From Candidatus Falkowbacteria bacterium RIFOXYC2_FULL_47_12 (GTDB taxonomy: Bacteria; Patescibacteriota; Patescibacteriia; Patescibacteriales; XYC2-FULL-47-12), in contig MFGL01000020.1 of the NCBI GenBank assembly GCA_001778285.1, forward strand, positions 36,881 to 79,157: a stretch of DNA of 42,277 nt, written 5' to 3'. The notes beneath the pieces are model-generated. The model did not search any database. It had not been told where the DNA came from and worked only from the letters and a program-made list of their open reading frames with translations. The translations under genes were made by a program, and so were the position numbers. Below, piece after piece: positions 453 to 15,661 of this stretch. Numbering within the stretch: the first letter of the stretch is position 1; every line of letters starts with the position of its first letter.

Positions 453-2033
453 TTACCAAGAAGCGTCCCAATCACCGACTATATCGGTTACATCAATAAA
501 TTTATAACGGGTCTTATTGGCGGAAACGGAGTCAGAGAAATAATTCCTGTCTTCGAGCAACGGCAAATTTGTTCCGAAGTATGTATTGAAAATAACCCGA
601 AACGAATTGACCGGCGTCATGGTATCATAGAGATGGCTGTCGCCGCCATTGGGCAAATAAAGCGCGTTAAAATTACGCATCCGTTCGCTATAAAGATGAT
701 TATTGGCGGTATCTTCGCCGGCGGTTGACCAGGAGCCATGATCGCTCTGGATTATAATAATCGGCGGCGTTTTTGACTTGGCTAAAATCTGATTTACGGT
801 AACTTCCACTTTTTTATTAAGAAAAGTTACCTGATCCGCATAGCGCTGTTTTATGTCCGGCCCCCAGCCACCAATATCCTCTGGCTTGAGGCGAAAAGCG
901 GTACCAGCTACATTTTCGCCATTAGGACCGAAGATAAAAGGCGGATGGGGCGAAAGTATATGGGCAAAAACAAATTTCGGCCCAACGATTTTATTAAATT
1001 CCGGCATATTACCCAACTGGTCAAATGTGTAAAGTATCCGCTCGCGGTAATCCCCTAATATATAAGAATGAATTGGTGGGTACAAAAGTCCGACGCGCAA
1101 CAACGAACTGTTAACAATTAGCATGGTAAGTTCGTTAAATTTTCCGCCTTGTAGCTGGACATCAGCGTACGGGTTTGAACTGGTCGCTCCCCAGATTGAC
1201 CGGAAAGTAATATACTTATAACCTTGGCTGCGTAAAAACTGCCAGACCTTATTGTTTTCAATCAGTTGGGTAGTGGGTTCAAAATCTTTATCCTGGCTCG
1301 CCGGTTCATCTGCCAAATAATTTAAATACTCCATATTGAGCGATGAGGCCAATGACAGTTGGGTAAATGCAAAATTACTAGTACTTTTATCAACTAAATA
1401 AAAACCTTTACCATGAAGATAGGAAAGAAAGGCACTGTTATCATAGTTAAATAGATTTTGCAGAGTATGGAAATTAGCATAGCCATCTAAAATAATATAA
1501 TAAATATCCGGCTTGGCGGCGGCCAATTTATCAGGGGAAACTTCCGCTGTCGGCGGCAAATTGGCTGGCTGGCCATTATCATTAAAAACATGAGGCACTA
1601 CGGTTATGGCTGACGTAAGTACCAGTACCAGCGCCACCATATTTAAAAACTGCTGCAATGCTTTTAAGGGGCGGCGAGTAAAAAATATGAAAGCCGTGCC
1701 GGCTAAAAATACAACAACATATTCCGATAAAAGATAACGGGCCCGGCCAATTTCTATATTCCAAACAAAAACGCCGACTAATGCATCATAAATATAACCA
1801 TAAGACCAGAAAAGCAACAAGCAGAATGATGTCATAATTGCGGCTTTGACTGTGCTTTTGCACAAAATCCGCATTAATAGAAGAATAACGGCCGTGGCTG
1901 AAATTGTCAGGCCGAGTGGTGCAAAAATATCAGATACCTTGAGTTCCGTCGGATTTTGCGCCAAAAAAAACATGAATGGAAAAATCGCCAATAATACAGG
2001 GTGGAAAATTTTGGTTAACCGGGTAAAAATCAT
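453..2033 (-). CDS. Membrane-anchored sulfatase/LtaS-type enzyme (alkaline phosphatase superfamily)
   Basis: 526 aa. A multi-span hydrophobic N-terminus is followed by a sulfatase-like domain (IYYIILDGY, IIIIQSDHGSW). ATG 2031-2033 overlaps the upstream stop (ATGA). Confidence 0.7.
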   Translation of the reverse strand: MIFTRLTKIFHPVLLAIFPFMFFLAQNPTELKVSDIFAPLGLTISATAVILLLMRILCKSTVKAAIMTSFCLLLFWSYGYIYDALVGVFVWNIEIGRARYLLSEYVVVFLAGTAFIFFTRRPLKALQQFLNMVALVLVLTSAITVVPHVFNDNGQPANLPPTAEVSPDKLAAAKPDIYYIILDGYANFHTLQNLFNYDNSAFLSYLHGKGFYLVDKSTSNFAFTQLSLASSLNMEYLNYLADEPASQDKDFEPTTQLIENNKVWQFLRSQGYKYITFRSIWGATSSNPYADVQLQGGKFNELTMLIVNSSLLRVGLLYPPIHSYILGDYRERILYTFDQLGNMPEFNKIVGPKFVFAHILSPHPPFIFGPNGENVAGTAFRLKPEDIGGWGPDIKQRYADQVTFLNKKVEVTVNQILAKSKTPPIIIIQSDHGSWSTAGEDTANNHLYSERMRNFNALYLPNGGDSHLYDTMTPVNSFRVIFNTYFGTNLPLLEDRNYFSDSVSANKTRYKFIDVTDIVGDWDASW

Positions 2034-3415
2034 AGTCTTTGCATTAAATAAAGCGTTCGCTCGGAACCAACAATAGATTCCTGCGCCGCAATAGTAAAAT
2101 AATTTTTAAACTCCCGTTCAAACGCGTTTTTGTTGTAATCGGGAAATATATCCGGCCGAGTAACAAGCAGCTTTTGCGCTTGGGAGTCTGATTTTGGGAC
2201 AAATTCAATAATCAGCTGTCTGGCAATTTTACTAAAAAATGAGGCAATGTGGCCAAGCGGCAAATTATTGGAAATAGCCAAGTGATGTACTAGCGCCAGC
2301 GCCAGCGCGCAATCAGCCGGGCCACGCTTGATGAGAGAGTCACGCTCTTCATTGCTCCAGCCGAAATTCGGACTAGGGTTGGTGATATCAATGAGTAAGG
2401 GCAGAAGATGCTTGGTCTGGTCGTGCCGCAGACGCAGATAATTTTTTTCCACTGACGCTGGGTCATAATCAAACGAGACAGTAAGCCGACCGCTGCCACT
2501 GGCTAAACGGCTGAAAGTGCCGTCGTTGGCGCCCACATCCCAAACTTTTTTAGCTCCACTTTTCTCTAAAAATTCTGTAACCAGACGCTTCTTATGCGCA
2601 AAAGATTCATCTGAATAATTTGTAGCCGTGTAATATTCAGCCCATTCAGTGCCGGCTGGCTGCCAGCGCAAACGCCGCACCAGGGACTCTAAATTATCAA
2701 TCAAGCCCAAAAGCGAGGTCTTGCCCATTGAATAACGAGCTATGTTGGCTGATTTACCGGCAAAGTGCGCTTGGCTTTTCGCGTGCAAATGAATATGCGA
2801 AAGCAATCCGAATGAAGCGTAGGTGCGAACAGGCAAAAGCTTACTGGCTAAATTCAAAGGAATGCCGTCTATATAAATTCTAAACCACTGATTAAGACGT
2901 ATATCCACATAACTCATGATAGCCAAAGGAGCCAAAAAATGCTGGCAAAATTGGCGATAAGCGATCCAAGGCGTTCCGGGAATATATTGTTCAAACGAAA
3001 GCGTATCAATCATAATGGGTTGGCCGTCCAGAAATTGAATATTGTAGGCACTGGCATCTTTGAGTATTAAACCGTGCTCCAGTGCGCTTTTTTGAATAGA
3101 CAGCGTCAATAGAGCCGCGTCCTTTAACTGACTAAAACTCCATTCAAAAGGGTAGGAAATAAAAGGAACCATGTTTGGCTGAATGACTTTGTATGTACTG
3201 TCCTGTTGTAATGATTCTGTCAGCGGCAATTCTTTATGTTCAATCAGCCGTCCGGAGGAAACGAGTACGTTGTACAAACCAGACGTCATGAGCGCATCGT
3301 AATGTTTTTGATAAATTTTATTTACCTGGCGACGCAATTGTCCGCTTTCCTGGTCAATATACATAAATCCGCTCGGATCACGGAACGAACTGGAATGGAT
3401 GCTAAAACTACGCAT
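2030..3415 (-). CDS. Class I SAM-dependent methyltransferase with an N-terminal accessory domain (NoeA-like)
   Basis: 461 aa with SAM motif I VWDVGANDGTFS. The N-terminal FRDPSGF region resembles NoeA-type methyltransferases. ATG at 3413-3415. Confidence 0.65.
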   Translation of the reverse strand: MRSFSIHSSSFRDPSGFMYIDQESGQLRRQVNKIYQKHYDALMTSGLYNVLVSSGRLIEHKELPLTESLQQDSTYKVIQPNMVPFISYPFEWSFSQLKDAALLTLSIQKSALEHGLILKDASAYNIQFLDGQPIMIDTLSFEQYIPGTPWIAYRQFCQHFLAPLAIMSYVDIRLNQWFRIYIDGIPLNLASKLLPVRTYASFGLLSHIHLHAKSQAHFAGKSANIARYSMGKTSLLGLIDNLESLVRRLRWQPAGTEWAEYYTATNYSDESFAHKKRLVTEFLEKSGAKKVWDVGANDGTFSRLASGSGRLTVSFDYDPASVEKNYLRLRHDQTKHLLPLLIDITNPSPNFGWSNEERDSLIKRGPADCALALALVHHLAISNNLPLGHIASFFSKIARQLIIEFVPKSDSQAQKLLVTRPDIFPDYNKNAFEREFKNYFTIAAQESIVGSERTLYLMQRL

Positions 3416-3439: not shown

Positions 3440-3703
3440 CTATTTCTGCTCTAAAGACTTTTCGGATTCTTCGGCTGCCGACGGCGTTGGCGCAATTTTT
3501 GCCTTACGGCCGCGGCTCAACATTAATCGCAGGCGCTGCCAATATACCTTAACCATAAAAATGCCGCCAGCGATAAATGCAATCGCAAGCTGGATAAGAT
3601 AGCTGCCGGTACCGGCGTCCAAATACGCATAAACGTTATGAGGAACAGCCAGGGCATATACGACTATAATCAGAATAAAAACGTAAACGTTGTAACTTGC
3701 CAT
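3440..3703 (-). CDS. Small membrane protein (hypothetical)
   Basis: 87 aa with two hydrophobic segments flanking a YLDAGTGSY motif and a basic C-terminal tail. It fills an otherwise empty 330-nt gap and starts at an ATG, but I saw no clear SD. Confidence 0.45.
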   Translation of the reverse strand: MASYNVYVFILIIVVYALAVPHNVYAYLDAGTGSYLIQLAIAFIAGGIFMVKVYWQRLRLMLSRGRKAKIAPTPSAAEESEKSLEQK

Positions 3704-3747: not shown

Positions 3748-4497
3748 TCATATTGCCGCAAAACCGTTATTGTTTCGGGTAATCATGCGCTCGGCAATGG
3801 CACGCTCATCGGGCGTGTCAATTTCCACCCACTGCGGATAGCCCAGATCTACCATGGCGACAGCGCCGCGACGGGCGGCATACGCCAAAATCGCTTCTTC
3901 CACGTGCGTCTGTTGCGGGTTGCCCTGTGCAAGAACCTCGGTAGCGCTGGCAAAAAATGCCGGTACGATTTTTTCCGGGCAGTACAATATGCTGTTGAAA
4001 TAGTACTCATAATCCGTCAGCCCCTTGGCCATAGCAACTAGATGATTGTGCTGGTCAACTTTTACCACCATATCAAGCTGTACGTCATCCGATTCGTCGT
4101 CAGTACCGAATATTTTTATCTGATCGTCAAGGTGCCCTCTGATTTTTTTAGCAATATCTGCGTGGTAAATATAGTCGCCGTCGTATGAAAGAAAGCCGCC
4201 GGTAATTTCCGGCTGCGCTTTCATTAAGCTTACCATGCGCTGCGTCGTACGGTACTCCCTGTTTTCAACCATCACGACTTTTTTATCAATGGCAATAACC
4301 GCAGCGGCCAGCTGGTCAAACAAATAACCTCCCACTACCACGATTTTTGCCGGATTCAGCGCGCGCGCAAATGCCAATGAATACTCAATAATCGGCTTGC
4401 CTGCCACCAACGTCAGGGCTTTTGGCTGATCTTTTGTTAAATCACCTAAGCGCGTACCCATACCGGCGGCTAAAATTATTACGGTTAATTCTTTCAT
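3748..4497 (-). CDS. Nucleotidyltransferase (LicC / IPCT / sugar-1-phosphate NTase-like)
   Basis: 249 aa with the N-terminal signature VIILAAGMGTRLG...PKAL of GT-A fold NTP transferases. Confidence 0.8.
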   Translation of the reverse strand: MKELTVIILAAGMGTRLGDLTKDQPKALTLVAGKPIIEYSLAFARALNPAKIVVVGGYLFDQLAAAVIAIDKKVVMVENREYRTTQRMVSLMKAQPEITGGFLSYDGDYIYHADIAKKIRGHLDDQIKIFGTDDESDDVQLDMVVKVDQHNHLVAMAKGLTDYEYYFNSILYCPEKIVPAFFASATEVLAQGNPQQTHVEEAILAYAARRGAVAMVDLGYPQWVEIDTPDERAIAERMITRNNNGFAAI

Positions 4498-4513: not shown

Positions 4514-6382
4514 TTAGTAGCTAAGTTCTAAGGCACGGCTAATTAATTCCGGAGGACACGGAATGCCGAATTCGCCCTTGATTTTCCAAACCCTCCCTAT
4601 ATACTCTAACAATACCATTCTCATGTCAGTGGTCCGGGTTTTTTTGTTATAACGCAAAGATTCTAAAATCACATCACGTCCTATGGTCGGTGGAATCTGA
4701 TACGGTAGATTATATTTTTTAAAAATATCTTCATGCGCCTTGACCGTTTCCGGCGGCGTTACTTGCATGAGATGCGCTAACTCCGCAGAAACGCGCATAC
4801 CAATAGCAATGGCCTGGCCGTGAGTATATTGAAAGTTAGATAAAAACTCAATTGCATGGCCAACTTCATGACCGTATTGCAAAATCATCGCCCGCTGGTC
4901 TTCAAACATGTCTTCGTGCATTAACTCTATTTTTAATTTTATAGTATCGGAAATAACTCGGGTAATAAAACCAACATCCTGCAGATTACCGTCGTAACCC
5001 AGCAAATAATTAAACAGTTCTTTACTCTGGCCAACGGCGTGTTTTATAGCCTCTGCCAAACCATCACGCACCAGCGCATCCGGCATAGGAATTGCCGGGT
5101 CAATGACTACCATTAATGGCTGGTAGTAACTGCCGACTAGATTCTTGCCCTTTTGTCCGTTGATTCCTTGTTTCAAACTAACGGACACGTCCAGCATGCT
5201 CATTAATGTTGTCGGCAAGTGAATCAAGCCGATGCCGCGATATAGGGTAGATGCCAAAAAACCCGACAGATTAGCCACCACTCCCCCTCCTAAGGCAAAA
5301 ATAATTGATTGTTCGTCAATGCCCAAGGCGATGATTTTTTCGGCTAAATTATTATAAACTTCCATGCTTTTGGCTGACTCATCGGCCGGCACTACCAATT
5401 TTGTTACTTTATAACCGGCTTCTTTTAACTGCGCCTCCACGGCTTCGCCTAAAATAACATTAACGTTGGCATCGGTAATGAGAATATGATGGGAAGCGGT
5501 GCGCTCCGGCGCCATTAATCTAATCCGGGAAAGTTTACTAATGATGCCCGGCTCAAAAATAATATCGGTTGTTTGCTCCCGGCGATATCTAAAAGCAAAA
5601 GCAGGGGCGACTGATTTGAGATTTCCGACCTGGACATTAGTGTGTCGCCTCGACAAATGCTGGCTGCGCAAAAACATCTCCGCCCGCATTAATGTCACCG
5701 GAGTATTAATGTCAAACCAAGTTGTTTCCGGCATCTGGGTCAACCGAATAAAACCTCGTTTGTTTAAATGATCCAAGATTTCCGCAAATGACATTTCAGC
5801 AGACGCACCCTGCAAGACATCGGCTAATTTGGCTAAACCGGCCTTGGTAAAATAATACACGCCGGCGTTGAAAGCGTTATAATCAGGCATGTCCTCGCCT
5901 CCAAAAACAGCCTGACCGAATACGCTGGTTTTGACCGTCATACCGGCGCCGCAAAATCTGTTAGCGGCGATATTTTTGTCTATCATAACCTCAATGTCAT
6001 CTTTTTTAGTGAACCACTTGAAAGGATTGTCTTGAAAAATCAAATCGCAGGAAGTAAGAAAGCAATCGTCAGCCACCGCTTCCACAACCGCTTGCAATGA
6101 ATTGACTAAACTAAAGCCGGTGCCACGCCTGTCTATGAAAATTAATTCCGCGCTGCTCATGTTTTGCAGAACGCTTTTCACTTCAGATGCGTAATTATCA
6201 ACCGCGATATAGATTTTGGTTACCCCTGCTTCCAACAGCCTCTCAATTTGGTACATAATTAACTGTTTGCCAAACGCCAAAACTAACGGCTTAGCAACGT
6301 TAAGCTGATTCAGCCTCTGCCCCTTTCCGCCGGCTAATATCACGCCGACCGTTGTTTGATTGGAATACGATGCGCTTGACAT
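4514..6382 (-). CDS. Fusion protein: N-terminal nucleotidyltransferase + C-terminal 3-dehydroquinate-synthase-family sugar phosphate cyclase
   Basis: 622 aa. The N-terminus carries GVILAGGKGQRL. The C-terminus carries DHQS-family motifs: LGGGVVANLSGF, HLPTTLMSMLDVSVSLKQGIN, GKNLVGSYYQP, GLAEAIKHA, RAMILQYGHEVGHAIE, HGQAIAIGM and YNKK. Confidence 0.85.
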   Translation of the reverse strand: MSSASYSNQTTVGVILAGGKGQRLNQLNVAKPLVLAFGKQLIMYQIERLLEAGVTKIYIAVDNYASEVKSVLQNMSSAELIFIDRRGTGFSLVNSLQAVVEAVADDCFLTSCDLIFQDNPFKWFTKKDDIEVMIDKNIAANRFCGAGMTVKTSVFGQAVFGGEDMPDYNAFNAGVYYFTKAGLAKLADVLQGASAEMSFAEILDHLNKRGFIRLTQMPETTWFDINTPVTLMRAEMFLRSQHLSRRHTNVQVGNLKSVAPAFAFRYRREQTTDIIFEPGIISKLSRIRLMAPERTASHHILITDANVNVILGEAVEAQLKEAGYKVTKLVVPADESAKSMEVYNNLAEKIIALGIDEQSIIFALGGGVVANLSGFLASTLYRGIGLIHLPTTLMSMLDVSVSLKQGINGQKGKNLVGSYYQPLMVVIDPAIPMPDALVRDGLAEAIKHAVGQSKELFNYLLGYDGNLQDVGFITRVISDTIKLKIELMHEDMFEDQRAMILQYGHEVGHAIEFLSNFQYTHGQAIAIGMRVSAELAHLMQVTPPETVKAHEDIFKKYNLPYQIPPTIGRDVILESLRYNKKTRTTDMRMVLLEYIGRVWKIKGEFGIPCPPELISRALELSY

Positions 6383-6387
6383 AAAAA

Positions 6388-7146
6388 TTAAGATAATATT
6401 GTTTGCTCAAAACGTTTGGTTAAACCGCTGACATACAATACCTGCCGGACAAAATGGAACGAAAATATGAAACAAAATCCGGCCATGAACAGCCACACAA
6501 AAACATCCAGACGGTTAAATAATGCGCACAGCAGTAAGGGAAACACCATGCCAACCGAACTGAAAATGTTACGATTAATGAAAAAAGATAACCGTCGCCG
6601 CCAGGTCTGTCGGACTTGCGGCCGGGATGCGCCAGCTGAGGACATTGCCGGTTCCAGTCCCAAATACTGCTTTAACCCTAAAAAACGGAATTCTAAAAAC
6701 CTAATCCATAGCTTAAAAATAGTGGCGAAATAGCCGACGTAGATAATAGACGCGCCGTATCCGGCTCTACATAAGCCAATGGTTAAGGGGATGAAAAGCA
6801 AGCCGTACTGAATGTCGTGGCTGACCGGCTCCACGTACGCGCCGGCACGGGTTTTGTTGCCCTTTAAACGCGCGATTTCTCCATCGCAGGCGTCAAAAAT
6901 AATAGAGAAATAAATAAGCGCCACGCCCGCCAAATTGAACCAGTAATCGTTAAAAATAAACAAAGAAATGCCGCTGATAAAAATCAAAACGCTGATAACG
7001 GTAATCTGATTAGGCGTGAGCGGTGTTCGTGCCAAAACGCGCGTCAGGTAAATTGACCAAAAGCGCACGGTACGGCCGACGTACGTTTCGTGTCCGCCTT
7101 CCGGCGCGCTTGCCTGCAACTTTTGTCGCCACTCCCTAGTGCTCAT
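6388..7146 (-). CDS. CDP-alcohol phosphatidyltransferase family membrane protein
   Basis: Motif FDACDGEIARLKGNKTRAGAYVEPVSHD in a polytopic protein. I chose the start MSTREW (ATG 7144-7146) because of the AGGTGA SD at 7154-7159 with a 7-nt spacer. The ORF-track extension to 7251 overlaps the kinase gene. Confidence 0.85.
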   Translation of the reverse strand: MSTREWRQKLQASAPEGGHETYVGRTVRFWSIYLTRVLARTPLTPNQITVISVLIFISGISLFIFNDYWFNLAGVALIYFSIIFDACDGEIARLKGNKTRAGAYVEPVSHDIQYGLLFIPLTIGLCRAGYGASIIYVGYFATIFKLWIRFLEFRFLGLKQYLGLEPAMSSAGASRPQVRQTWRRRLSFFINRNIFSSVGMVFPLLLCALFNRLDVFVWLFMAGFCFIFSFHFVRQVLYVSGLTKRFEQTILS

Positions 7147-7153
7147 GCTGGTA

Positions 7154-8092
7154 TCACCTGTCATATGTATTAAATAATTGATAAAAATGCGACGGAGATA
7201 TTTTTTTGAAATCTTGGTACACTTGATAGAAGTTAGTGGTGATAAAATCAAAATATTTTTTTGACGTCCTTCCGTTCACGTACATGTAAAAATCCATAAA
7301 GATATGACTTAAAAAAGCAAACCCAACAACTTGGTACAGCTCACCTTGTTCACGTGGAGAAAGGGAACGATTTGCAACATACCCATTATAAACTTCCCGC
7401 GCTGTTCGTATGTTAAAGTCCTTTCCCTGCGCTCCAAACCAAACCATACTCTTTGCCAAATCAAGTAACCAGGGGCCGACATATGCATTGTCAAAGTCAA
7501 TCACGCCGCTTAAATTTCCTTTCTCAAATAATACATTACTCGGTTTAACGTCAACATGGATTGGGCCGGTTGGCAGCTTGGAGCTTACTTGATGATCTAA
7601 AATTTCTTCTTTTATTTGTAGTAACAGTGCCGGCCGCGGCGTTTTTTTTGCCAGACAAAAATTATACACTCTCTTAATTTTGACAGTTGGGAAATCGTAG
7701 AACTTTTCTCTTGCGCCAGAAAAACGAAATCCCCCGCCCTGTGCATGAAACTTGGCCAGAAACTCCCCTACCTGAAATAACTGCCGACGGTTAAAAATTT
7801 TTAAATTTCTGCCGGGAATGTACTGATAAATAATAGCGTACTTTCCGTCTATCCTAAAAATCATCTTGCCATTGTACGTCATTATATTGGGTACCGGCAA
7901 TGTCTTAATATAATCCAACAAGGCTATATCGGCTTTTATCTGTTGCAAAGGTTTACGGCGATATATTCTTAGAATAGATGTCCCATCTCGGGTGTCTACC
8001 CGGTAACTTTCATTAACCGCCCCGCCGCGGTATTTTTTTATCTTTACCGGCTGGCTGCCTGGCCACCATTTTTTTATTTCTGCTGTGTGCAT
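7154..8092 (-). CDS. APH / choline-kinase / homoserine-kinase-II fold small-molecule kinase
   Basis: Catalytic loop IHVDVKPSNVLF and metal-binding motif VIDFDNA. ATG 8090-8092 (MHTAEIKK) lies just after the upstream stop at 8095. Confidence 0.8.
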   Translation of the reverse strand: MHTAEIKKWWPGSQPVKIKKYRGGAVNESYRVDTRDGTSILRIYRRKPLQQIKADIALLDYIKTLPVPNIMTYNGKMIFRIDGKYAIIYQYIPGRNLKIFNRRQLFQVGEFLAKFHAQGGGFRFSGAREKFYDFPTVKIKRVYNFCLAKKTPRPALLLQIKEEILDHQVSSKLPTGPIHVDVKPSNVLFEKGNLSGVIDFDNAYVGPWLLDLAKSMVWFGAQGKDFNIRTAREVYNGYVANRSLSPREQGELYQVVGFAFLSHIFMDFYMYVNGRTSKKYFDFITTNFYQVYQDFKKISPSHFYQLFNTYDR

Positions 8093-8094
8093 AT

Positions 8095-9123
8095 TTATCG
8101 CTCCATTACCACCACGCTTTTTAAAACCTCCCCCGACCAACTGGCGGCAAATGCTTGTTCAATTTCAGCCAGAGGATAAATATGTTCAGGTGAAATAAAC
8201 TCCCCCGCGTTAAGCTTGCCCTGTTCAATCAAAGCGATAATATCGTCGTGCACTGAAGCCTCATCGTAGTGTTCGCCACTATAAAAAGAAAAATCACCTT
8301 TCACCAACGAGGTATTGATATGGTAGTCCAAAACATTATCCAGACCGTAAACGCCTAGCTTAACACCGCTTTTTGTTAACGGCAAAACTTTGTTCAGGGA
8401 ACTGCTATCGCCAATGGCGTCAATCACCACATCGGCACTTCCCCATCCCAACGCTTTCATTGCAGCCGGCTGGTTCACTTCCCGGTAAGACACAAAGCTG
8501 TTAGCGCCGCTCCGCCTAAAATGTTCACTGCGTTTGGGACTGCCAATAACCAATGTCTCCACACCCAAGTTGTGGCTATGTTTGACAAATGCCAAAGCGT
8601 TTGCGCCGGAACCAATAATAACAACTTTGTCTGTTGCGGCTACCTGCAGACGCTTTAAAAATGAATGCGTCTCACGCCAGGTGATAATCAGAGTACTTTC
8701 CGCCGGCGAAAAATGCGTTGGTAATACGCGCTGAACGGTATAGCGGCGCCACTCGGTCTCCGGTAAGCCATCGGCGCGCATGGCCTGCCAGTCTGTCGCC
8801 ACGCCTTTTTGCGCAAACCCGCCCCAGTGCAAATGAATGCCTGAATCTTCTGGTAGCTTATTAAAAATGCGGGTGACCAGATCGCCAATGTTTAAATTTT
8901 TTACTTTGGGGCCGCAGGCAGTCACACGGCCAATGGCTTCGTGGCCCAAAATTGTGGGAAACTGTACTTTAAAGTATGGATCGTTATGAAACAGATGCCG
9001 ATCGGTGCCGCTACATACGGAGCAGGCCAAAATATCGCACAGCACGTCATAACCCCCGACGACTGGGTCGGGAACTTCACGGACAACTATTTTTCGTGGT
9101 GTTTCTAAAACGGCGGCTTTCAT
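8095..9123 (-). CDS. Zn-dependent medium-chain dehydrogenase/reductase
   Basis: ACSVCSGTDRH and GHEAIGRV catalytic-Zn motifs plus a GSGANA Rossmann motif. There is no structural-Zn Cys loop. ATG 9121-9123 overlaps the GT4 stop (ATGA). The track start at 9132 is a TTG. Confidence 0.85.
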   Translation of the reverse strand: MKAAVLETPRKIVVREVPDPVVGGYDVLCDILACSVCSGTDRHLFHNDPYFKVQFPTILGHEAIGRVTACGPKVKNLNIGDLVTRIFNKLPEDSGIHLHWGGFAQKGVATDWQAMRADGLPETEWRRYTVQRVLPTHFSPAESTLIITWRETHSFLKRLQVAATDKVVIIGSGANALAFVKHSHNLGVETLVIGSPKRSEHFRRSGANSFVSYREVNQPAAMKALGWGSADVVIDAIGDSSSLNKVLPLTKSGVKLGVYGLDNVLDYHINTSLVKGDFSFYSGEHYDEASVHDDIIALIEQGKLNAGEFISPEHIYPLAEIEQAFAASWSGEVLKSVVVMER

Positions 9124-10283
9124 GCTTGACAATTTAATAGTAAAGAACTATCACCATCAATAAATTTAACAATCTTTTTTGCGCGTTCCTGCCAGTCGTA
9201 ACCGCGCGCTTGCCCAGACACCGCCTGCGCCAGCGTGCGGGCAAGAACTCGGTTATTTAAAAGCATATTTATTTTCTCCGCCAAATCCGCCGAATTATCC
9301 GGCTCGCATAACAACGCGTTTTCGTTATTTTTTAAATACCCCTGAAAACTCTCTACATTGCTCGCCACAATCGGCACATTGCTGGCCATATACTCAAACA
9401 ATTTTATCGGCGTCGTATACTTGGCCGAACGCTCTTCTCGCGCGGTATTGGGCAAAACCAGCACGTCAGCTGATTTTATAAACTTGATAATTTCAGCATG
9501 CGGGATAAATTCATGAACGCGCACGTTGGTCAGTTTTTTTTCTAAAATGTAACTTTCAACTTTTTGTCTGTCCTGTGGTATGCCGCCGATTAAAATAATC
9601 ATGCCTTTGATAAATTTCGCCGCATCAAGCAATGTGTAGACTCCCTTCCAGGCGTAGAAATGGCCAACATAAAGCACCGCCGGCTCATCCGGTTTGAAGC
9701 CAAATGTATCTGTCCATACATTTTTATCGGCAGAAACATTTGCAAAGGCCTCAATATCCACGCCGTTGGGAGCTACGATATATGAATGTGCGTCTACGCC
9801 TTCCCTCTGATACAGATTTTCCAAAGCCTGCGCCACAATCACTTTTTTTGGAATTGTTTTGATAAACCAACGATACAGCCAACGCCAGCGTTTTTTAGGC
9901 TCATGATCTTCAAAAATGATATTTTTACCAACCAATGAAAGCCAAAAACAAATGGTGATATCGCGTGAATAAATGGCATCAGCCCGACTAAACAATACGT
10001 AAGCAAACGCCAGAAATCCGAAAGTCAGGCGCTGTAGAATAAAGTATGCGTGCTGCCAGTACGTTTCCAACCAGCCACAAACATTGGGAATGTACGTTAT
10101 CTCAAGAGGTACGGCAAGGTTATAATAATTCTCCAGAGAATCGGTAATGGTATTGCGCCGGCGAGGGGCGACCAATGTTATCTCTACCCCCTGTTTTTGC
10201 AACGCCTCAATGGTTTTGATAATTTGCCAGCCGTGAGCTTTTTCAGTAGGCAGGCGCGAATTGGCAAGATACAAGAGGCGCAT
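9120..10283 (-). CDS. GT4-family (GT-B) glycosyltransferase
   Basis: The likely start is MRLLYLANS (ATG 10281-10283), 1 nt after the stop of the HTH gene. The C-terminal part has ...TPIKLFEYMASNVPIVAS, typical of GT4. Confidence 0.85.
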   Translation of the reverse strand: MRLLYLANSRLPTEKAHGWQIIKTIEALQKQGVEITLVAPRRRNTITDSLENYYNLAVPLEITYIPNVCGWLETYWQHAYFILQRLTFGFLAFAYVLFSRADAIYSRDITICFWLSLVGKNIIFEDHEPKKRWRWLYRWFIKTIPKKVIVAQALENLYQREGVDAHSYIVAPNGVDIEAFANVSADKNVWTDTFGFKPDEPAVLYVGHFYAWKGVYTLLDAAKFIKGMIILIGGIPQDRQKVESYILEKKLTNVRVHEFIPHAEIIKFIKSADVLVLPNTAREERSAKYTTPIKLFEYMASNVPIVASNVESFQGYLKNNENALLCEPDNSADLAEKINMLLNNRVLARTLAQAVSGQARGYDWQERAKKIVKFIDGDSSLLLNCQA

Positions 10284-10284
10284 A

Positions 10285-10545
10285 CTAAACGGGCCATTTA
10301 TTAATAACATCAACCGCTCGTTTTTTTATTTTCAAGTACATTTTTTCTGATTTTTTCTCAAGTTCAGGGGAAATAAGGCGCAATATTTCCTTACCCATAA
10401 TGCGGTATTGTCCTCCGACTTTATTTGCTTTGAGAATGCCTCTTTTAAGCAACCGTTTTATAGTACTTTCGCTAATTTTAAGCAAATTTTGAGCCTCGGC
10501 AGTCGTATATACAGCATTCTCTTTTATTTCTTCAGACATGTGCAT
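10285..10545 (-). CDS. Excisionase/MerR-type helix-turn-helix (HTH_17-like) DNA-binding protein
   Basis: 86 aa. YTTAEAQNLLKISESTIKRLLKRGILKANKVGGQYRI matches the excisionase-family HTH pattern. ATG at 10543-10545, with an alternative at 10537-10539. Confidence 0.7.
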   Translation of the reverse strand: MHMSEEIKENAVYTTAEAQNLLKISESTIKRLLKRGILKANKVGGQYRIMGKEILRLISPELEKKSEKMYLKIKKRAVDVINKWPV

Positions 10546-10613: not shown

Positions 10614-11792
10614 TTACCAGGCTATTTCTGCCGGAGTCGTTTGATGGTCAGCTACTTTTTTCGCAAGCTCTTCCTGCATTTCGTTACAATTTTTAAATAT
10701 GCCCTCGGGACACGTTTCTTTCCATACATCCATAAGCATGAGGGCTACTCCGGTTTCGGTTGGGTGTTCACCGTCCAGCATATACACATCTTGTATGCCT
10801 ACAGACTTTAAATCGGAAAAATCAAAATAGTGAATATCATGGCTTGCAAATACCACGGCAACGTTTTGTTTGAATGACTGCAAAAAAGACGCATAGTGAG
10901 AATTACTCATAGCCGCATACACTTCGGTTGAAAACGGTGGGGCAATACCGACAACGGTAATACCGCGCGCCCGGGCGAGGGTTAAAAATTCATCCAAAAT
11001 AGCCGGCCCAGCCTCTGCAAACGAGCTGCCAAACGAAAACGGATCATACCCTTCACGCACCCGCTCAATAATCGGCGGCACTTCCCTGTCCACGTAGGTC
11101 ATATCACGGCGCATCTCTGAAATGTAGCCCGCGTATTGCCGGCTGCCGTCATTGCGGAAACCGTTGCCGTGTTCTATGGCATCAATACCTACCGCCCTTC
11201 CCCCGCCAAAAGGATCAATTCCTTTGATAAGGGTAAAAGCGTATGTGGGATGTTTAATGAGCCGGGACAAAACGTAGCGGCTGGCGTACAAATAGGCCCT
11301 CCAATTGTATACTTCTTCCGGTGCGGATAATGCGTCCGTAAATCCCCGATGCCGTAGATACTGGACATCAAACCACCACGTATCAATGCCGACTATTATA
11401 ACTTCCGGAGCGTATTCTTGAGGCAATGCATTTACAAAATCAACCAAATCCATAAGACTGCTGGCCATGCTGCCCGCATTATAAAAGACGCTGCCCTTGC
11501 CAAACATTTCTTTTCTTAATTCCAAAACGCGTGATGAACCAACCGCCAAAATCTCCGGCCGCTGCCGCATAACGCTTAAGTACTTGTACTTAACCGTCTC
11601 GCGTTCAATGATTTGGCGGGCAAAAACATATTCAGCACCGCCTTCGGCCTGTTTATCAACGACTCGTCTAAGCGGCTGGATTTCCCCCGCGTACACGGCG
11701 AAAAATATGGCCACGCCCGTTAACACGGCTACCGGCACTAAAAATAAAGAAAAAATTTTTACAAACATTTTAATGTCTGTGGAATATTTCAT
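10614..11792 (-). CDS. Membrane-anchored DltD/AlgJ-like SGNH-type O-acyltransferase partner
   Basis: 392 aa with an N-terminal TM anchor, a VGSSRV Ser motif near residue 85 and a LDGEHPT (D-x-x-H) motif near the C-terminus. It lies immediately downstream of the MBOAT gene. Confidence 0.55.
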   Translation of the reverse strand: MKYSTDIKMFVKIFSLFLVPVAVLTGVAIFFAVYAGEIQPLRRVVDKQAEGGAEYVFARQIIERETVKYKYLSVMRQRPEILAVGSSRVLELRKEMFGKGSVFYNAGSMASSLMDLVDFVNALPQEYAPEVIIVGIDTWWFDVQYLRHRGFTDALSAPEEVYNWRAYLYASRYVLSRLIKHPTYAFTLIKGIDPFGGGRAVGIDAIEHGNGFRNDGSRQYAGYISEMRRDMTYVDREVPPIIERVREGYDPFSFGSSFAEAGPAILDEFLTLARARGITVVGIAPPFSTEVYAAMSNSHYASFLQSFKQNVAVVFASHDIHYFDFSDLKSVGIQDVYMLDGEHPTETGVALMLMDVWKETCPEGIFKNCNEMQEELAKKVADHQTTPAEIAW

Positions 11793-13237: not shown

Positions 13238-13248
13238 GACAGTAAAAT

Positions 13249-14355
13249 TTAAAGACGATAAGCGTTGCAGGCCGCGGCAATGTAGTTGGCTTGTTCCAAG
13301 GTCATAGTCGGATATATCGGCAGGCTGATAACGCTGGCATGCAACGCCTCGCTGACGGGGTAAATCTGCGTATCCCAATCAGAAAACGCCTCTTGCTTAT
13401 GCGGCGCAACCGGGTAATGAATAACGGTTTGAATTTCGCGGTCTTGTAAGTATTGCTGAAAATGATCGCGATTTTCGGTGCGAACCACAAACAAATGCCA
13501 CACGTGCGATTCGCGATGCAATGCCGGTTGAGGCAAGACAAGCGCGGCATTGGTAATGTGCTGCAAATAAAACTCCGCCACTGTCCGGCGTTTTTCATTT
13601 TCTCCATCCAAATATTTCAACTTTACGGATAGCACTGCCGCTTGCAAGGCATCCAGGCGGCTGTTAACGCCCTGGTATTGGTTATAATATTTTTTGTGAC
13701 TGCCGTAGTTGCGCAATGCCCGGACTATCTCGGCCAAAGCCGGATCATTGGTAGTTACGGCTCCGCCATCGCCCAGAGCGCCGAGATTTTTACCAGGGTA
13801 AAAGCTAAATCCGCCGGCGTCTCCGAGTGAGCCAGTTCTTTTGTCTTGCAATATTGCCCCATGCGCTTGGGCGCAATCTTCAATGATTTTTAAGCCATGT
13901 GCGTTAGCAATTTTCTGCATTCTCTGTGAATACCCCACCTGCCCGTAGAGATGAACCACCATGATCGCCTTTGTTTTTACAGTGATAATATCCTCCAGTC
14001 TATTCACGTCTATGTTATAGGTGCTGGTGTCCGGTTCAACCAGTACCGGTTTTAAACGATTTTCAGTAATAGCTAAGATGGTAGCGATATACGTGTTGGC
14101 CGGAACTAAAATCTCATCACCCTCATGAAGTATATCCAACTCTTTGTAGGCGCGAATAATTAATGTCAGCGCGTCCAAACCGTTGCCGCTACCTATGGCG
14201 TGCTTAACGCCGCAGTAACGCGTGAACTCGGCTTCAAACTGTTCCACTTCTTTTCCCAGTATATATTGGCCGGAATCAAACACACGCGTTATAGCCGCCA
14301 TAATTTCCTCGCGGTGCGCGGCGTTAATAGCGCGCAAGTCTAAAAAAGGAATCAT
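13249..14355 (-). CDS. DegT/DnrJ/EryC1/StrS-family PLP-dependent sugar aminotransferase
   Basis: [18 protein letters not shown]...[16 protein letters not shown] and [16 protein letters not shown] (PLP lysine). ATG at 14353-14355. Confidence 0.9.
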
Positions 14356-14360
14356 ATATT

Positions 14361-15626: not shown

Positions 15627-15661
15627 AGTGTAAGGTTGCAAAGTAGATTAACTGATGCACA

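What the first reader, a model, noticed from the sequence alone, without database searches (positions are those of the whole stretch)
4514..6382. Nucleotidyltransferase fused to a DHQS-family sugar phosphate cyclase
A single 622-aa ORF joins a GxGxRL NTase domain (GVILAGGKGQRL) to a domain that aligns motif by motif with 3-dehydroquinate synthase. The matches are GGGVVANLSGF vs GGGVVGDLTGF, PTTLMSMLDVSVSLKQGIN vs PTTLLSQVDSSVGGKTAVN, GKNLVGSYYQP vs GKNMIGAFYQP, GLAEAIKHA vs GLAEVIKYG, RAMILQYGHEVGHAIE vs RALLNLGHTFGHAIE, and HGQAIAIGM vs HGEAVAAGM. The metal and phosphate ligands appear retained. Two positions differ from AroB as I recall it: LN-x-GH becomes LQ-x-GH, and GD becomes AN in the glycine loop. 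That is the kind of change that separates EEVS, DOIS and DDGS-type cyclases from true DHQS. A covalent cyclase-NTase pair suggests channelling of a cyclised product, after phosphorylation, into a nucleotide-activated form.
Basis: partly seen in the sequence, partly recalled or inferred. Interest (0 to 1): 0.7.

Follow-up and report, generated by a model that had tools for sequence, protein, structure and literature searches.

The report
Cyclitol synthase fused to nucleotidyltransferase
A candidate-phylum bacterium encodes a real, recurrent two-domain enzyme that probably builds a six-carbon ring sugar-alcohol (cyclitol) with one half and, after help from a neighbouring reductase and kinase, attaches a nucleotide handle with the other, apparently to decorate the cell surface.

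Summary
Window 4514-6382, on the minus strand, is one uninterrupted 622-aa ORF with an N-terminal NTP-transferase domain and a C-terminal dehydroquinate-synthase-fold domain. It is not an artefact. The identical protein occurs in two Falkowbacteria MAGs, and the same fusion occurs in 50 other species genomes (Patescibacteria, Myxococcota/Bradymonadia, a few others) at 33-59% identity.

The cyclase is not AroB:
- It scores below the NCBIfam aroB cut-off.
- It lacks the DAHP-carboxylate arginine (AnDHQS R264 becomes A/G/S/E).
- It has a near-invariant Gln where DHQS has N268, DOIS has Glu, EEVS has Asp and DDGS has Ala.
- It forms its own clade (99% bootstrap) next to 2-deoxy-scyllo-inosose synthases (96%).

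Among the 27 fused loci with at least 3 kb of flank on both sides, a kinase (APH or PfkB) is adjacent in 27/27 and a reductase (Zn-ADH or SDR) in 23/27. The figure is 0/11 for canonical aroB loci. Triple fusions carrying the SDR or the APH kinase also exist.

Best reading: cyclise a hexose-6-phosphate, reduce, phosphorylate, then make an NDP-cyclitol. In this window a DIPPS/AF2299-like CDP-alcohol phosphotransferase and an EptA-like membrane transferase would then pass it to a surface glycan. This is an uncharacterised variant of known cyclitol and polyol-phosphate activation pathways. Substrate, nucleotide and acceptor are inferred.

The parts
4514..6382 (-). 622-aa bifunctional ORF (NTase plus sugar phosphate cyclase). 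It equals OGF27354.1/OGF40618.1, 'hypothetical protein A2477_03900', from Candidatus Falkowbacteria.
   Evidence: AF2 model has mean pLDDT 91.9.
5663..6346 (-). N-terminal nucleotidyltransferase domain (aa 13-240). It carries the GxGxRL loop and the two conserved Mg-binding Asp residues (D113, D224).
   Evidence: Pfam PF00483/PF12804. Best solved relatives are LicC, RmlA, CobY and 4jd0. A17, G19, K31, D113 and D224 are at least 90% conserved in 51 homologues.
5600..5662 (-). Inter-domain linker (aa about 241-261).
   Evidence: pLDDT dips here (73-84) between two confident domains. The linker is continuous in all homologues.
4523..5599 (-). C-terminal DHQS-fold sugar phosphate cyclase domain (aa 262-620) of the 'Q-clade'.
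   Evidence: Pfam PF01761 plus PF24621. The HMM envelope is aa 262-620. Foldseek top hit is DOIS 2gru, about level with DHQS.
4877..4891 (-). Codons A498 to Q502 (AMILQ). These are the equivalents of AnDHQS R264 to N268 and form the diagnostic fingerprint.
6388..7251 (-). CDP-alcohol phosphotransferase, a membrane protein. The likely start is the Met at 7164. It ends 5 nt before the fusion ORF starts.
   Evidence: Pfam PF01066, E 2.5e-10. NCBIfam best hits are archaetidylinositol-P synthase, PIP synthase and DIPPS. PDB best hits are AF2299 (9e-15) and IPCT/DIPPS 4mnd. The motif DACDGEIAR...G...E....D and the TM segments are shown. A homologue lies within 3 kb of the fusion in 11/27 complete-flank fused loci.
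7154..8140 (-). APH-fold small-molecule kinase, the inferred cyclitol kinase.
   Evidence: Pfam PF01636, E 2e-29. PDB best hit is homoserine kinase 2ppq. A kinase is adjacent in 27/27 complete-flank fused loci, as APH or PfkB. It is fused to the NTase-cyclase in P0109.
8095..9132 (-). Zn-dependent medium-chain dehydrogenase/reductase, the inferred ketocyclitol reductase.
   Evidence: Pfam ADH_N/ADH_zinc_N. NCBIfam gives weak hits, including scyllo-inosose 3-dehydrogenase IolM. PDB hits are generic ADHs. A reductase (Zn-ADH or SDR) is adjacent in 23/27 loci. An SDR is fused in P0043/P0044.
9120..10313 (-). GT4 glycosyltransferase at the head of the cassette.
   Evidence: Pfam. It occupies the same position in Parcubacteria locus L003.
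10285..10545 (-). HTH_17 DNA-binding protein preceding the cassette. It is syntenic in L003.
3748..4497 (-). Second, stand-alone NTP-transferase (NT2), 23% identical to the fused NTase domain. Its substrate is unknown.
   Evidence: It co-occurs in 13/27 complete-flank fused loci. It is fused to a methyltransferase in L003 and L005.
3440..3703 (-). 87-aa protein with two TM helices, syntenic in related cassettes.
2030..3415 (-). 461-aa protein with a weak SAM-methyltransferase-like C-terminal part, syntenic in related cassettes. Its function is unknown.
453..2033 (-). 526-aa membrane protein with 5 N-terminal TM helices and an extracytoplasmic alkaline-phosphatase-superfamily domain. This is the EptA/MCR-1/LtaS-type architecture. 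It is the inferred phospho-alcohol transferase acting outside the membrane.
   Evidence: TM segments. Homologues carry PF00884 and are named 'sulfatase-like hydrolase/transferase'. AF2 pLDDT is 86.7. Foldseek top hits are EptC, MCR-1 and EptA. D183, S227/S230/S231, H358, H363, D431 and H432 are invariant. It is syntenic in L003.

Best explanation
The ORF encodes a bifunctional enzyme that catalyses the first and last steps of a four-step route to a nucleotide-activated carbocyclic polyol (NDP-cyclitol).

Inferred steps:
1. The C-terminal domain is a NAD+/metal-dependent sugar phosphate cyclase of a previously uncharacterised clade, sister to 2-deoxy-scyllo-inosose synthase. It converts a sugar phosphate lacking the DAHP carboxylate into a deoxy-inosose-type ketocyclitol and releases phosphate. 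The substrate is most likely an aldohexose 6-phosphate such as glucose-6-P.
2. The neighbouring reductase (Zn-ADH here, SDR in most other genomes) reduces the ketone to a deoxy-inositol.
3. The neighbouring kinase (APH-fold here, PfkB in Myxococcota) re-phosphorylates it.
4. The N-terminal NTase domain condenses the cyclitol phosphate with an NTP to give the NDP-cyclitol. CTP is the likeliest nucleotide, by analogy with IPCT and LicC.

In this Falkowbacteria locus, the adjacent DIPPS/AF2299-like CDP-alcohol phosphotransferase then moves the cyclitol phosphate onto an alcohol acceptor, a lipid or a glycan. The EptA-like membrane enzyme at the end of the cassette may relay it to the surface glycopolymer made by the rest of the 42-kb locus.

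Shown by the evidence: the fusion, the fingerprint, the clade and the conserved gene partnership. Inferred: substrate, stereochemistry, nucleotide, acceptor and step order.
For: The fusion is real and recurrent.

The cyclase keeps every metal- and phosphate-binding residue needed for DHQS-type chemistry. It differs as follows:
- It has A/G/S/E at R264 and Q at N268. Q occurs in 45/50 fused loci, and in the alignment the clade of 67 proteins (fused plus stand-alone relatives) has Q at 96%.
- This combination is seen in none of DHQS, aDHQS, EVS, EEVS, DDGS, DOIS or EboD.
- A small residue at position 264 is shared only with the aldohexose-6-P cyclases DOIS and EboD.

Phylogeny and scores:
- In a neighbour-joining tree with 100 bootstraps, the family is monophyletic at 99% and groups with DOIS at 96%.
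- The aroB equivalog model scores 265, below its cut-off of 305.
- The best PDB sequence and fold hit is DOIS.

Partnership:
- Among 27 fused loci with at least 3 kb of flank, a kinase is within 3 kb in 27 and a reductase in 23. The figure is 0/11 for both at canonical aroB loci from the same scan.
- Kinase and reductase are each supplied by two unrelated families: APH or PfkB, and Zn-ADH or SDR.
- Triple fusions exist: NTase-cyclase-SDR (P0043/P0044) and NTase-cyclase-APH (P0109).

NTase domain: the catalytic Asp residues and the Gly loop are conserved.

Downstream transferase: the CDP-alcohol transferase's closest characterised relatives all handle inositol phosphate.

Precedents: GDP-valienol from an SPC plus kinase plus cyclitol NTase (PMC9200736), and the proposed CDP-inositol Kennedy-type route (PMC9246714).
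Against: - There is no biochemical data for any member.
- The fused domains catalyse non-consecutive steps, which is unusual.
- Type-B cassettes, including this one, contain a second NTase. The APH kinase plus NT2 could therefore be a LicA/LicC-like pair serving a different alcohol, which would leave the cyclitol kinase unidentified here.
- BtrC Glu243, from my memory of the literature, assists phosphate elimination. A Gln at that site may mean different chemistry.
- K356 is retained as in DHQS, whereas DOIS has Asn there.
- Four of the 27 complete-flank loci showed no reductase with my two query families.
- The tree is distance-based and has a limited reference set.
- The Myxococcota cassettes lack any adjacent transferase.
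Confidence: 0.6

Rival explanations
1. The cyclase uses sedoheptulose 7-phosphate and makes a C7 valiolone-type carbasugar. The NDP-carbasugar would then be a pseudo-glycosyl donor for the adjacent GT4, as GDP-valienol is for VldE and AcbS.
For: The same overall logic (SPC plus kinase plus reductase plus NTase) is proven for GDP-valienol. A GT4 heads the cassette here and in L003. K250, H275 and K356-type residues resemble EVS and DHQS more than EEVS.
Against: In the alignment EEVS (ValA, S. bottropensis) and EVS carry Arg at AnDHQS position 264. DDGS aligns with Asp there and has the Arg one residue later. The Q-clade never has Arg at 264, and this family groups with the G6P-using DOIS at 96%. 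The GT4 is adjacent in only 2/56 fused loci. The CDP-alcohol phosphotransferase points to phospho-transfer rather than glycosyl transfer.
Confidence: 0.15
2. The fused NTase does not activate the cyclitol. The cyclitol or cyclitol phosphate is instead the ACCEPTOR for the CDP-alcohol transferase, which would act like a PIP synthase using CDP-diacylglycerol. The NTase domains would make an unrelated NDP-sugar or CDP-alcohol for the same glycan.
For: PIP and archaetidylinositol-P synthases are among the best matches of the transferase. Two NTases are present in the cassette. The NTase substrate cannot be read from sequence.
Against: The NTase is covalently fused to the cyclase in more than 50 species. 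In Myxococcota the only partners are a reductase and a kinase, with no CDP-alcohol transferase and no second NTase, so the NTase has no other obvious substrate there. Triple fusions tie kinase, reductase and NTase to the cyclase.
Confidence: 0.15
3. It is an ordinary 3-dehydroquinate synthase (AroB) of the shikimate pathway that happens to be fused to a sugar nucleotidyltransferase.
For: TIGR01357 aroB is the top NCBIfam hit (E 1e-78). Some databases label homologues '3-dehydroquinate synthase'. All metal and phosphate ligands are kept.
Against: The score is below the equivalog cut-off (265 against 305). R264 is absent and N268 is Q, whereas all 38 DHQS sequences in the call-32/59 alignment (7 references and 31 AroB-like database hits) have R and N. 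The family lies outside the AroB clade. There are no shikimate genes in the 42-kb window, which is a glycan locus. Canonical aroB loci lack the kinase and reductase partners (0/11).
Confidence: 0.03
4. The ORF is an assembly chimera or two genes merged by a frameshift error.
For: The window derives from a metagenome-assembled genome. One relative (Taylorbacteria P0023) is annotated as a 388-aa stand-alone protein.
Against: The identical protein occurs in two MAGs and on 6 contigs from different sources, and two further full-length 622-aa cluster members come from separate ENA assemblies. About 50 species carry the same 610-650-aa architecture at 33-59% identity with a conserved linker. The AF2 model is confident across both domains. 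In the Taylorbacteria locus the stop-to-stop ORF also spans both domains (L007).
Confidence: 0.01

Closest known systems
[quoted passage not shown]
   Same: Same fold. It is the best PDB hit by both sequence and structure and the nearest clade (96% bootstrap). It shares a small residue in place of R264. The Gly loop is xN rather than GD.
   Different: DOIS has Glu at the N268 position and Asn at K356. This family has Gln and Lys. DOIS enzymes are stand-alone and feed aminoglycoside antibiotic pathways through an aminotransferase. They are not fused to an NTase and not partnered with a kinase.
3-dehydroquinate synthase (AroB), EC 4.2.3.4
   Same: Same Pfam domains. The metal ligands (E194/H271/H287) and the phosphate pocket (R130, K152, N162, H275, K356) are identical, and K250 is also kept.
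   Different: The carboxylate-binding R264 is missing and N268 is Q. The protein scores below the aroB model cut-off, lies outside the AroB clade and has no shikimate gene context.
GDP-valienol pathway of validamycin and acarbose (ValA/AcbC EEVS; ValC/AcbM/AcbU kinases; AcbL/AcbN; VldB/AcbR cyclitol nucleotidyltransferase)
   Same: Same logic: an SPC makes a ketocyclitol, tailoring and kinase steps give a cyclitol 1-phosphate, and an NTase gives an NDP-cyclitol used as a donor (PMC9200736).
   Different: That pathway uses a C7 EEVS cyclase with a D/P fingerprint and a GlgC-like NTase. All its enzymes are separate, it belongs to actinomycete secondary metabolism, and its acceptor step is a pseudoglycosyltransferase. 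Here the cyclase is DOIS-like, the NTase is RmlA/LicC/IPCT-like and fused, and the context is cell-surface glycan synthesis with a CDP-alcohol phosphotransferase.
IPCT/DIPPS (CTP:inositol-1-phosphate cytidylyltransferase fused to di-myo-inositol-phosphate-phosphate synthase), AF2299, and the proposed Bacteroides/Prevotella CDP-inositol cluster
   Same: An NTase of the same superfamily works with a CDP-alcohol phosphotransferase that handles a cyclitol phosphate. The window's transferase is most similar to AF2299 and IPCT/DIPPS, and the NTase domain hits the IPCT/DIPPS model. The Kennedy-type CDP-inositol route is described in PMC9246714.
   Different: In those systems the ring comes from myo-inositol-1-phosphate synthase, which retains the phosphate, so no kinase or reductase is needed. 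There the NTase is fused to the transferase. Here it is fused to the ring-forming enzyme.
CDP-ribitol, CDP-glycerol and CDP-choline systems of teichoic acids and capsules (TarI/TarJ and the Bcs1 reductase-cytidylyltransferase fusion; LicA/LicC). This comparison is from general knowledge and was not tested here.
   Same: A reductase and/or kinase plus a cytidylyltransferase produces a CDP-polyol that decorates or polymerises on surface glycans. Fusions between the NTase and the preceding enzyme occur in these systems.
   Different: The polyol is acyclic or is choline, and no carbocycle-forming enzyme is involved.
EptA/MCR-1/EptC phosphoethanolamine transferases and LtaS (compared with ORF 453-2033)
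   Same: Five N-terminal TM helices plus an extracytoplasmic alkaline-phosphatase-fold domain with conserved metal and nucleophile residues.
   Different: There is no significant sequence match to any solved structure and TM-scores are only 0.35-0.41. The donor and acceptor are unknown.

Membership tests
Sugar phosphate cyclase (DHQS-fold) superfamily | DHQ_synthase N-terminal plus DHQS_C domains above the Pfam gathering thresholds, and the DHQS fold | tested here: met
   PF01761 scores 104.8 bits (GA 24.2) and PF24621 scores 97.4 bits (GA 27.6). Foldseek gives E 2e-30 and target-normalised TM 0.88 to DOIS and DHQS.
Sugar phosphate cyclase (DHQS-fold) superfamily | Metal ligands (AnDHQS E194, H271, H287) and phosphate-pocket residues (R130, K152, N162, H275, K356) | tested here: met
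   All are present (E444, H505, H521, R382, K404, N414, H509, K580) and invariant in 51 fused homologues.
3-dehydroquinate synthase (AroB) | Score at or above the NCBIfam TIGR01357 equivalog cut-off | tested here: not met
   265 bits against a cut-off of 305.
3-dehydroquinate synthase (AroB) | DAHP-carboxylate-binding Arg (AnDHQS R264) and Asn268 | tested here: not met
   Position 264 is Ala498 (A/G/S/E across the family) and position 268 is Gln502. All 38 DHQS sequences in the alignment (7 references and 31 AroB-like hits) have R and N.
3-dehydroquinate synthase (AroB) | Phylogenetic placement inside the AroB clade | tested here: not met
   The family is separated with DOIS from all DHQS, aDHQS and EVS sequences at 96% bootstrap in an NJ tree.
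3-dehydroquinate synthase (AroB) | Catalysis of DAHP to 3-dehydroquinate | not testable with these tools
   This needs an enzyme assay or aroB complementation.
[quoted passage not shown] | Glu at the BtrC E243 position (AnDHQS 268) and Asn at the K356 position | tested here: not met
   This family has Gln and Lys. All four reference DOIS sequences, P0076 and Streptomyces locus L080 have Glu, and the five proteins in the table also have Asn at the K356 position.
[quoted passage not shown] | Small residue replacing R264 | tested here: met
   Ala here and A/G in most of the family. The four reference DOIS sequences have Gly and P0076 has Ala.
[quoted passage not shown] | Membership of the DOIS clade | tested here: not met
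   DOIS plus P0076 form a 100% clade that excludes this family. The two clades are neighbours.
[quoted passage not shown] | Glucose-6-phosphate converted to 2-deoxy-scyllo-inosose | not testable with these tools
   This needs an enzyme assay.
EEVS / DDGS (sedoheptulose-7-P cyclases) | Asp (EEVS) or Ala (DDGS) at position 268, Pro at position 275, Met at position 250 | tested here: not met
   This protein has Q, H and K at those positions.
[quoted passage not shown] | Asp at position 268, His at position 250, Arg at position 356 (as in Npun_5231 and its relatives P0097 and P0101) | tested here: not met
   This protein has Q, K and K at those positions.
NTP_transferase (sugar/polyol-phosphate nucleotidylyltransferase) family | Pfam PF00483 above the gathering threshold, the G-x-G-x-R-L loop, and two Mg-binding Asp residues | tested here: met
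   51.9 bits (GA 21.2). The loop is GGKGQRL. D113 and D224 are at least 90% conserved and align to the RmlA GDNIF and W-x-D motifs.
NTP_transferase (sugar/polyol-phosphate nucleotidylyltransferase) family | Identity of the NTP and of the phosphorylated substrate | not testable with these tools
   The best relatives use CTP (LicC, IPCT), dTTP (RmlA) or GTP (CobY), so specificity cannot be inferred.
Cyclitol-nucleotide pathway (validamycin/acarbose type) | Co-localised SPC, cyclitol kinase and cyclitol NTase | tested here: met
   A kinase is adjacent in 27/27 complete-flank loci, and the NTase is fused.
Cyclitol-nucleotide pathway (validamycin/acarbose type) | EEVS-type cyclase, GlgC-like NTase, pseudoglycosyltransferase (VldE/AcbS) | tested here: not met
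   The cyclase fingerprint is not EEVS. The NTase's best hits are LicC, RmlA and IPCT, with the GlgC match only marginal. The neighbouring transferases are a GT4 and a CDP-alcohol phosphotransferase.
CDP-inositol / DIPP-type system (IPCT plus CDP-alcohol phosphotransferase) | NTase plus CDP-alcohol phosphotransferase encoded together | tested here: met
   The two genes are adjacent with a 5-nt gap. A homologue of the transferase lies within 3 kb in 11/27 complete-flank fused loci, all of them type-B cassettes.
CDP-inositol / DIPP-type system (IPCT plus CDP-alcohol phosphotransferase) | Ring supplied by myo-inositol-1-phosphate synthase | tested here: not met
   No MIPS is present in the cassette. 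A DHQS-fold cyclase, reductase and kinase take its place.

The most novel reading that the evidence does not exclude
The Q-clade is a new functional class of sugar phosphate cyclase devoted to cell-envelope biosynthesis rather than to the shikimate pathway or to secondary metabolites. Fused to its own nucleotidyltransferase, it gives Patescibacteria and Myxococcota/Bradymonadia a route to a CDP-activated deoxy-inositol that does not depend on myo-inositol-phosphate synthase. In Patescibacteria a Kennedy-type CDP-alcohol phosphotransferase and an EptA-like enzyme then install it. The result would be a cyclitol-phosphate lipid head group or a teichoic-acid-like decoration, a type of surface molecule not yet described.
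Probability: 0.35. Interest if true: 0.75.

Novelty: new variant of a known kind. Interest (0 to 1): 0.6.

Why it matters
According to a 2026 review (PMC12904256), DHQS-fold sugar phosphate cyclases are known from the shikimate pathway, aminoglycosides, C7N-aminocyclitols, mycosporine/gadusol sunscreens and the cryptic ebo pathway.

A distinct clade with its own active-site fingerprint, hard-wired to a nucleotidyltransferase and embedded in surface-glycan loci, would extend the superfamily into envelope biogenesis. It would also predict a new class of carbocyclic polyol-phosphate surface structure. The organisms that would carry it are the ultra-small, largely uncultured Patescibacteria and predatory Bradymonadia and Myxococcota.

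The hypothesis can be tested directly. The proteins are soluble-type enzymes, and Bradymonas sediminis and Lujinxingia are cultured.

The enzymes could also serve as biocatalysts for nucleotide-activated carbasugars.

Tried and rejected
- Plus-strand reading of the coordinates: it is full of stops, and the gene is on the minus strand.
- Canonical AroB: rejected on model score, fingerprint, tree and context.
- Artefact: rejected on recurrence.
- Key SPC papers were not held. These were Kean 2014 (PMC4095911), Wu 2007 (PMC3127856) and Tanoeyadi 2024 (PMC11567786). Reference SPC sequences were taken instead from the eLife 2015 source data. The 14 fingerprint positions come from my memory of Kean et al.; I checked that each AnDHQS residue has the expected identity.
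- Literature searches for this fusion, for DOIS-like enzymes in Patescibacteria or Bradymonas, and for Glu243 found nothing relevant.
- Searching for clade-specific columns besides 264 and 268 found only F/Y167.
- PDB, Pfam and NCBIfam sequence searches on ORFs 453-2033, 2030-3415 and 10614-11792 gave nothing significant. Only the structure prediction and the homologue annotations placed ORF 453-2033.
- PDB hits for the Zn-ADH and the APH kinase were generic and gave no substrate clue.
- The NTase nucleotide specificity could not be inferred.
- The neighbourhoods of stand-alone Q-clade cyclases in Rhodopseudomonas and Paraburkholderia showed polysaccharide loci but no characterised pathway to anchor function.

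Full report
**1. The observation**

Window 4514-6382 holds a single 622-codon ORF, but on the minus strand. The plus-strand frame is riddled with stops.

Pfam finds three domains, all well above their thresholds:
- NTP_transferase, aa 13-240.
- DHQ_synthase N-terminal domain, aa 329-430.
- DHQS_C, aa 441-581.

The AroB strings it recalled match the true E. coli AroB sequence.

The ORF starts 5 nt after the stop of the upstream gene and ends 16 nt before the next start. It therefore sits in a tightly packed minus-strand operon.

**2. Not an artefact**

The protein is identical to 'hypothetical protein A2477_03900' of Candidatus Falkowbacteria bacterium RIFOXYC2_FULL_47_12. It is also identical to a protein of a second Falkowbacteria MAG. 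It was seen on six contigs from several sources, and two further full-length 622-aa cluster members come from separate ENA assemblies.

A word-indexed search of 5.8 billion proteins found more than 50 clusters with the same two-domain architecture, 610-650 aa long and 33-59% identical. An exhaustive HMMER scan of 1.84 billion 50%-identity representatives found only about 20 full-length fused representatives, so the family is real but small.

A scan of one genome per GTDB species returned 50 loci in which one ORF carries both domains. They come from:
- Patescibacteria (Taylor-, Magasanik-, Sacchari- and Parcubacteria).
- Myxococcota/Bradymonadia (Lujinxingia, Persicimonas, Polyangia, Kofleriaceae, Haliangiales).
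- A few Gammaproteobacteria and Cytophagia MAGs.

An AlphaFold2 model built on 51 homologues is confident over both domains (mean pLDDT 91.9), with a dip only at the linker. No solved structure covers both halves (query-normalised TM about 0.52).

**3. What kind of cyclase**

I took reference sequences for DHQS, aminoDHQS, DOIS, EEVS, EVS, DDGS and EboD from the source data of Osborn et al., eLife 2015. I aligned their cyclase domains with the 101 database hits.

The 14 A. nidulans DHQS active-site positions are recalled from Kean et al. 2014. I checked the residue identities. At these positions the fused family, together with nine stand-alone relatives, behaves as follows:
- It keeps all metal ligands and all phosphate-pocket residues. 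These are invariant in the 51 fused sequences.
- Position 264, the DAHP-carboxylate arginine, is A, G, S or E and never R.
- Position 268 is Gln in 96% of the clade.

States at positions 264 / 268 / 275 in the characterised families:

| Family | 264 | 268 | 275 | Other |
|---|---|---|---|---|
| DHQS, aminoDHQS, EVS | R | N | H | |
| EEVS (ValA, S. bottropensis) | R | D | P | |
| DDGS | D | A | P | Arg one residue after 264 |
| DOIS | G | E | H | N at 356 |
| EboD | S | D | H | H at 250 |
| This family | A/G/S/E | Q | H | |

All 31 genuine AroB hits from the same search have R and N. N268Q is essentially the only column that cleanly separates the clade from DHQS.

The multiple alignment shows this is one residue out of register, and that arginine is not conserved in the family.

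Further evidence against AroB:
- The aroB equivalog model scores 265 bits against a cut-off of 305.
- In a neighbour-joining tree (355 columns, 100 bootstraps) the family is monophyletic at 99%. It shares a 96% bipartition with DOIS against everything else. DOIS itself, with P0076, forms a 100% clade that excludes the family.
- DOIS is also the top PDB hit by sequence and by fold, though only just ahead of DHQS.

So the cyclase is a distinct, uncharacterised clade next to DOIS, which I call the 'Q-clade'.

A small residue at position 264 is otherwise seen only in the aldohexose-6-phosphate cyclases DOIS and EboD. I therefore infer a hexose-6-phosphate substrate and a deoxy-inosose product, but this is inference.

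**4. Gene partnership**

Reading 5' to 3' on the minus strand, the fusion sits in this cassette:
1. HTH_17 protein.
2. GT4.
3. Zn-ADH.
4. APH-fold kinase.
5. CDP-alcohol phosphotransferase.
6. The fusion ORF.
7. Second NTase (NT2).
8. 87-aa TM protein.
9. 461-aa methyltransferase-like protein.
10. 526-aa membrane protein.

The same order recurs in a Parcubacteria genome (L003).

In Bradymonas sediminis and Lujinxingia litoralis the fusion is followed only by an SDR and a PfkB kinase. Other loci mix APH with SDR.

I searched all ORFs of the fetched loci with the window's and Bradymonas' proteins. Among the 27 fused loci with at least 3 kb on both flanks:
- A kinase lies within 3 kb in 27 (13 APH, 14 PfkB).
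- A reductase lies within 3 kb in 23.
- Eleven canonical aroB loci retrieved by the same scan have neither (0/11 for each).

Each activity is thus supplied by two unrelated protein families. This argues that the function is what is conserved, not a hitch-hiking gene.

Rosetta-stone fusions confirm it. All carry the xQYGH signature:
- P0043 and P0044 are NTase-cyclase-SDR.
- P0109 is NTase-cyclase-APH.
- P0139 is GHMP-kinase-cyclase.

**5. Mechanistic reading**

DHQS-fold cyclases expel the substrate's phosphate and leave a ring ketone. A reductase and a kinase are therefore exactly what is needed to turn the product into a cyclitol phosphate that an NTase can accept.

The NTase domain has the Gly-rich loop and both Mg-binding aspartates conserved. 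Its nearest characterised relatives include CTP:phosphocholine cytidylyltransferase LicC, RmlA and the inositol-1-phosphate cytidylyltransferase model.

The inferred route is: hexose-6-P, then deoxy-inosose, then deoxy-inositol, then deoxy-inositol phosphate, then NDP-deoxy-inositol (probably the CDP form).

The fused domains perform the first and last steps, so direct channelling between them is unlikely. A multi-enzyme complex is possible, and the triple fusions hint at one.

**6. Fate of the product in this window**

The adjacent membrane protein is a CDP-alcohol phosphotransferase. Its best NCBIfam matches are archaetidylinositol-phosphate synthase, PIP synthase and DIPPS. Its best solved relatives are AF2299 and the IPCT/DIPPS fusion. 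All of these handle cyclitol phosphates.

The last gene of the cassette (453-2033) has:
- Five N-terminal TM helices.
- Homologues annotated as sulfatase-like hydrolase/transferase.
- A confident AF2 model whose best structural matches are EptC, full-length MCR-1 and EptA.
- Invariant putative metal and nucleophile residues.

By analogy with the relays phosphatidylethanolamine to EptA and phosphatidylglycerol to LtaS, I propose two steps. First, the CDP-cyclitol is condensed with a lipid alcohol. Second, the phospho-cyclitol is passed outside the membrane to the glycan built by the remaining 30 kb of the window. That region is a continuous minus-strand glycan locus with many glycosyltransferases and sugar-nucleotide tailoring enzymes. 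This last part is the least secure.

The second NTase and the methyltransferase-like genes are unexplained. The Myxococcota cassettes have no adjacent transferase.

**7. Comparison with what is known**

The logic 'SPC plus kinase (plus reductase) plus cyclitol NTase gives an NDP-cyclitol' is established for GDP-valienol in validamycin and acarbose biosynthesis (PMC9200736). There, however, the cyclase is an EEVS, the NTase is GlgC-like, the enzymes are separate and the acceptor step is a pseudoglycosyltransferase.

The logic 'NTase plus CDP-alcohol phosphotransferase acting on a cyclitol phosphate' is established for di-myo-inositol phosphate and proposed for Bacteroides/Prevotella inositol lipids (PMC9246714). 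There the ring comes from MIPS.

A 2026 review lists DHQS, DOIS, EEVS, EVS, DDGS and DEIS (EboD), besides MIPS, as the cyclitol-forming cyclases (PMC12904256). AminoDHQS is listed among the SPC families in the 2015 eLife paper. None of the literature searches found this fusion or this clade described.

I therefore class it as a new variant of a known kind: a new SPC clade and a new domain architecture within the familiar theme of polyol-phosphate nucleotide activation.

**8. Verdict**

- Observation: confirmed.
The gene is on the minus strand, R264 is lost, a reductase step is needed, and channelling is doubtful.
- Confidence in the NDP-cyclitol pathway reading: about 0.6.
- Confidence in the hexose-6-P substrate: lower.
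- Confidence in the surface-decoration end-point: lower still.
- Interest: 0.6. For a specialist the finding is moderately surprising. It is directly testable, because Bradymonas and Lujinxingia are culturable.

Noticed in passing
P0043/P0044, P0109, P0139, P0142, P0149/P0159, P0125 (database proteins, not in the window): Q-clade or related cyclases occur with other fusion partners. These are an SDR (NTase-cyclase-SDR), an APH kinase (NTase-cyclase-APH), a GHMP kinase, ThuA, a periplasmic-binding/LacI-like domain (these have V or L at the 268 position), and an unknown 440-aa N-terminal region.
   Followed up: partly
L067 (Rhodopseudomonas palustris BisB18) 7986-9143; L061 (Paraburkholderia atlantica) 7884-9128; also L062, L065, L059: Stand-alone Q-clade cyclases with the signature E-T-[IL]-K-Q-Y-G-H sit beside an SDR inside glycosyltransferase-rich polysaccharide loci of Alpha- and Betaproteobacteria. 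They have no kinase or NTase nearby. This may be a carbocyclic sugar component of an O-antigen or exopolysaccharide.
   Followed up: partly
window 453-2033 (-): A 526-aa protein gives no Pfam, NCBIfam or PDB sequence hit. Its predicted fold is EptA/MCR-1-like (5 TM helices plus an alkaline-phosphatase-superfamily domain), and it has more than 5000 database relatives.
   Followed up: yes
window 3748-4497, 3440-3703, 2030-3415 (-); L003 9832-13003; L005 11549-14643: A conserved sub-module consists of a second NTase (fused to a TylF-type or class-I methyltransferase in other genomes), a small two-TM protein and a roughly 465-aa methyltransferase-like protein. Its function is unknown.
   Followed up: partly
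window 10614-42263: Almost the whole window is one minus-strand surface-glycan locus. It includes an MBOAT (11804-13378), two DegT-type aminotransferases (13249-14382, and 18482-19900 with a GNAT part), a sugar C-methyltransferase (14361-15641), an AsnB-like amidotransferase (27359-29242), UDP-GlcNAc 2-epimerase (31737-32795), GDP-mannose 4,6-dehydratase (34561-35532), a GtrA-GT4 fusion (36650-38320) and several GT2/GT4 enzymes and methyltransferases.
   Followed up: partly
window 21684-22472 (-): A metallo-beta-lactamase-fold protein has an N-terminal match to the anti-Pycsar Apyc1 model that falls below threshold (41 bits against a cut-off of 50). It is probably just a generic MBL hydrolase.
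   Followed up: no
window 22548-23855, 24016-24891 (+), 24929-26158, 29998-31734, 10614-11792: Five sizeable ORFs have no Pfam hit. The ORF at 24016-24891 is the only long plus-strand gene in the window.
   Followed up: no
P0076 (547 aa, JGI metagenome); L080 (Streptomyces pulveraceus): Both proteins have Glu at the AnDHQS 268 position (ILEYGH in P0076, LVLEYGH in L080). P0076 also has Ala at 264 and Asn at 356, carries about 190 extra N-terminal residues, and groups with DOIS at 100% bootstrap. L080 has a Zn-ADH nearby, as expected of an aminoglycoside cluster.
   Followed up: no
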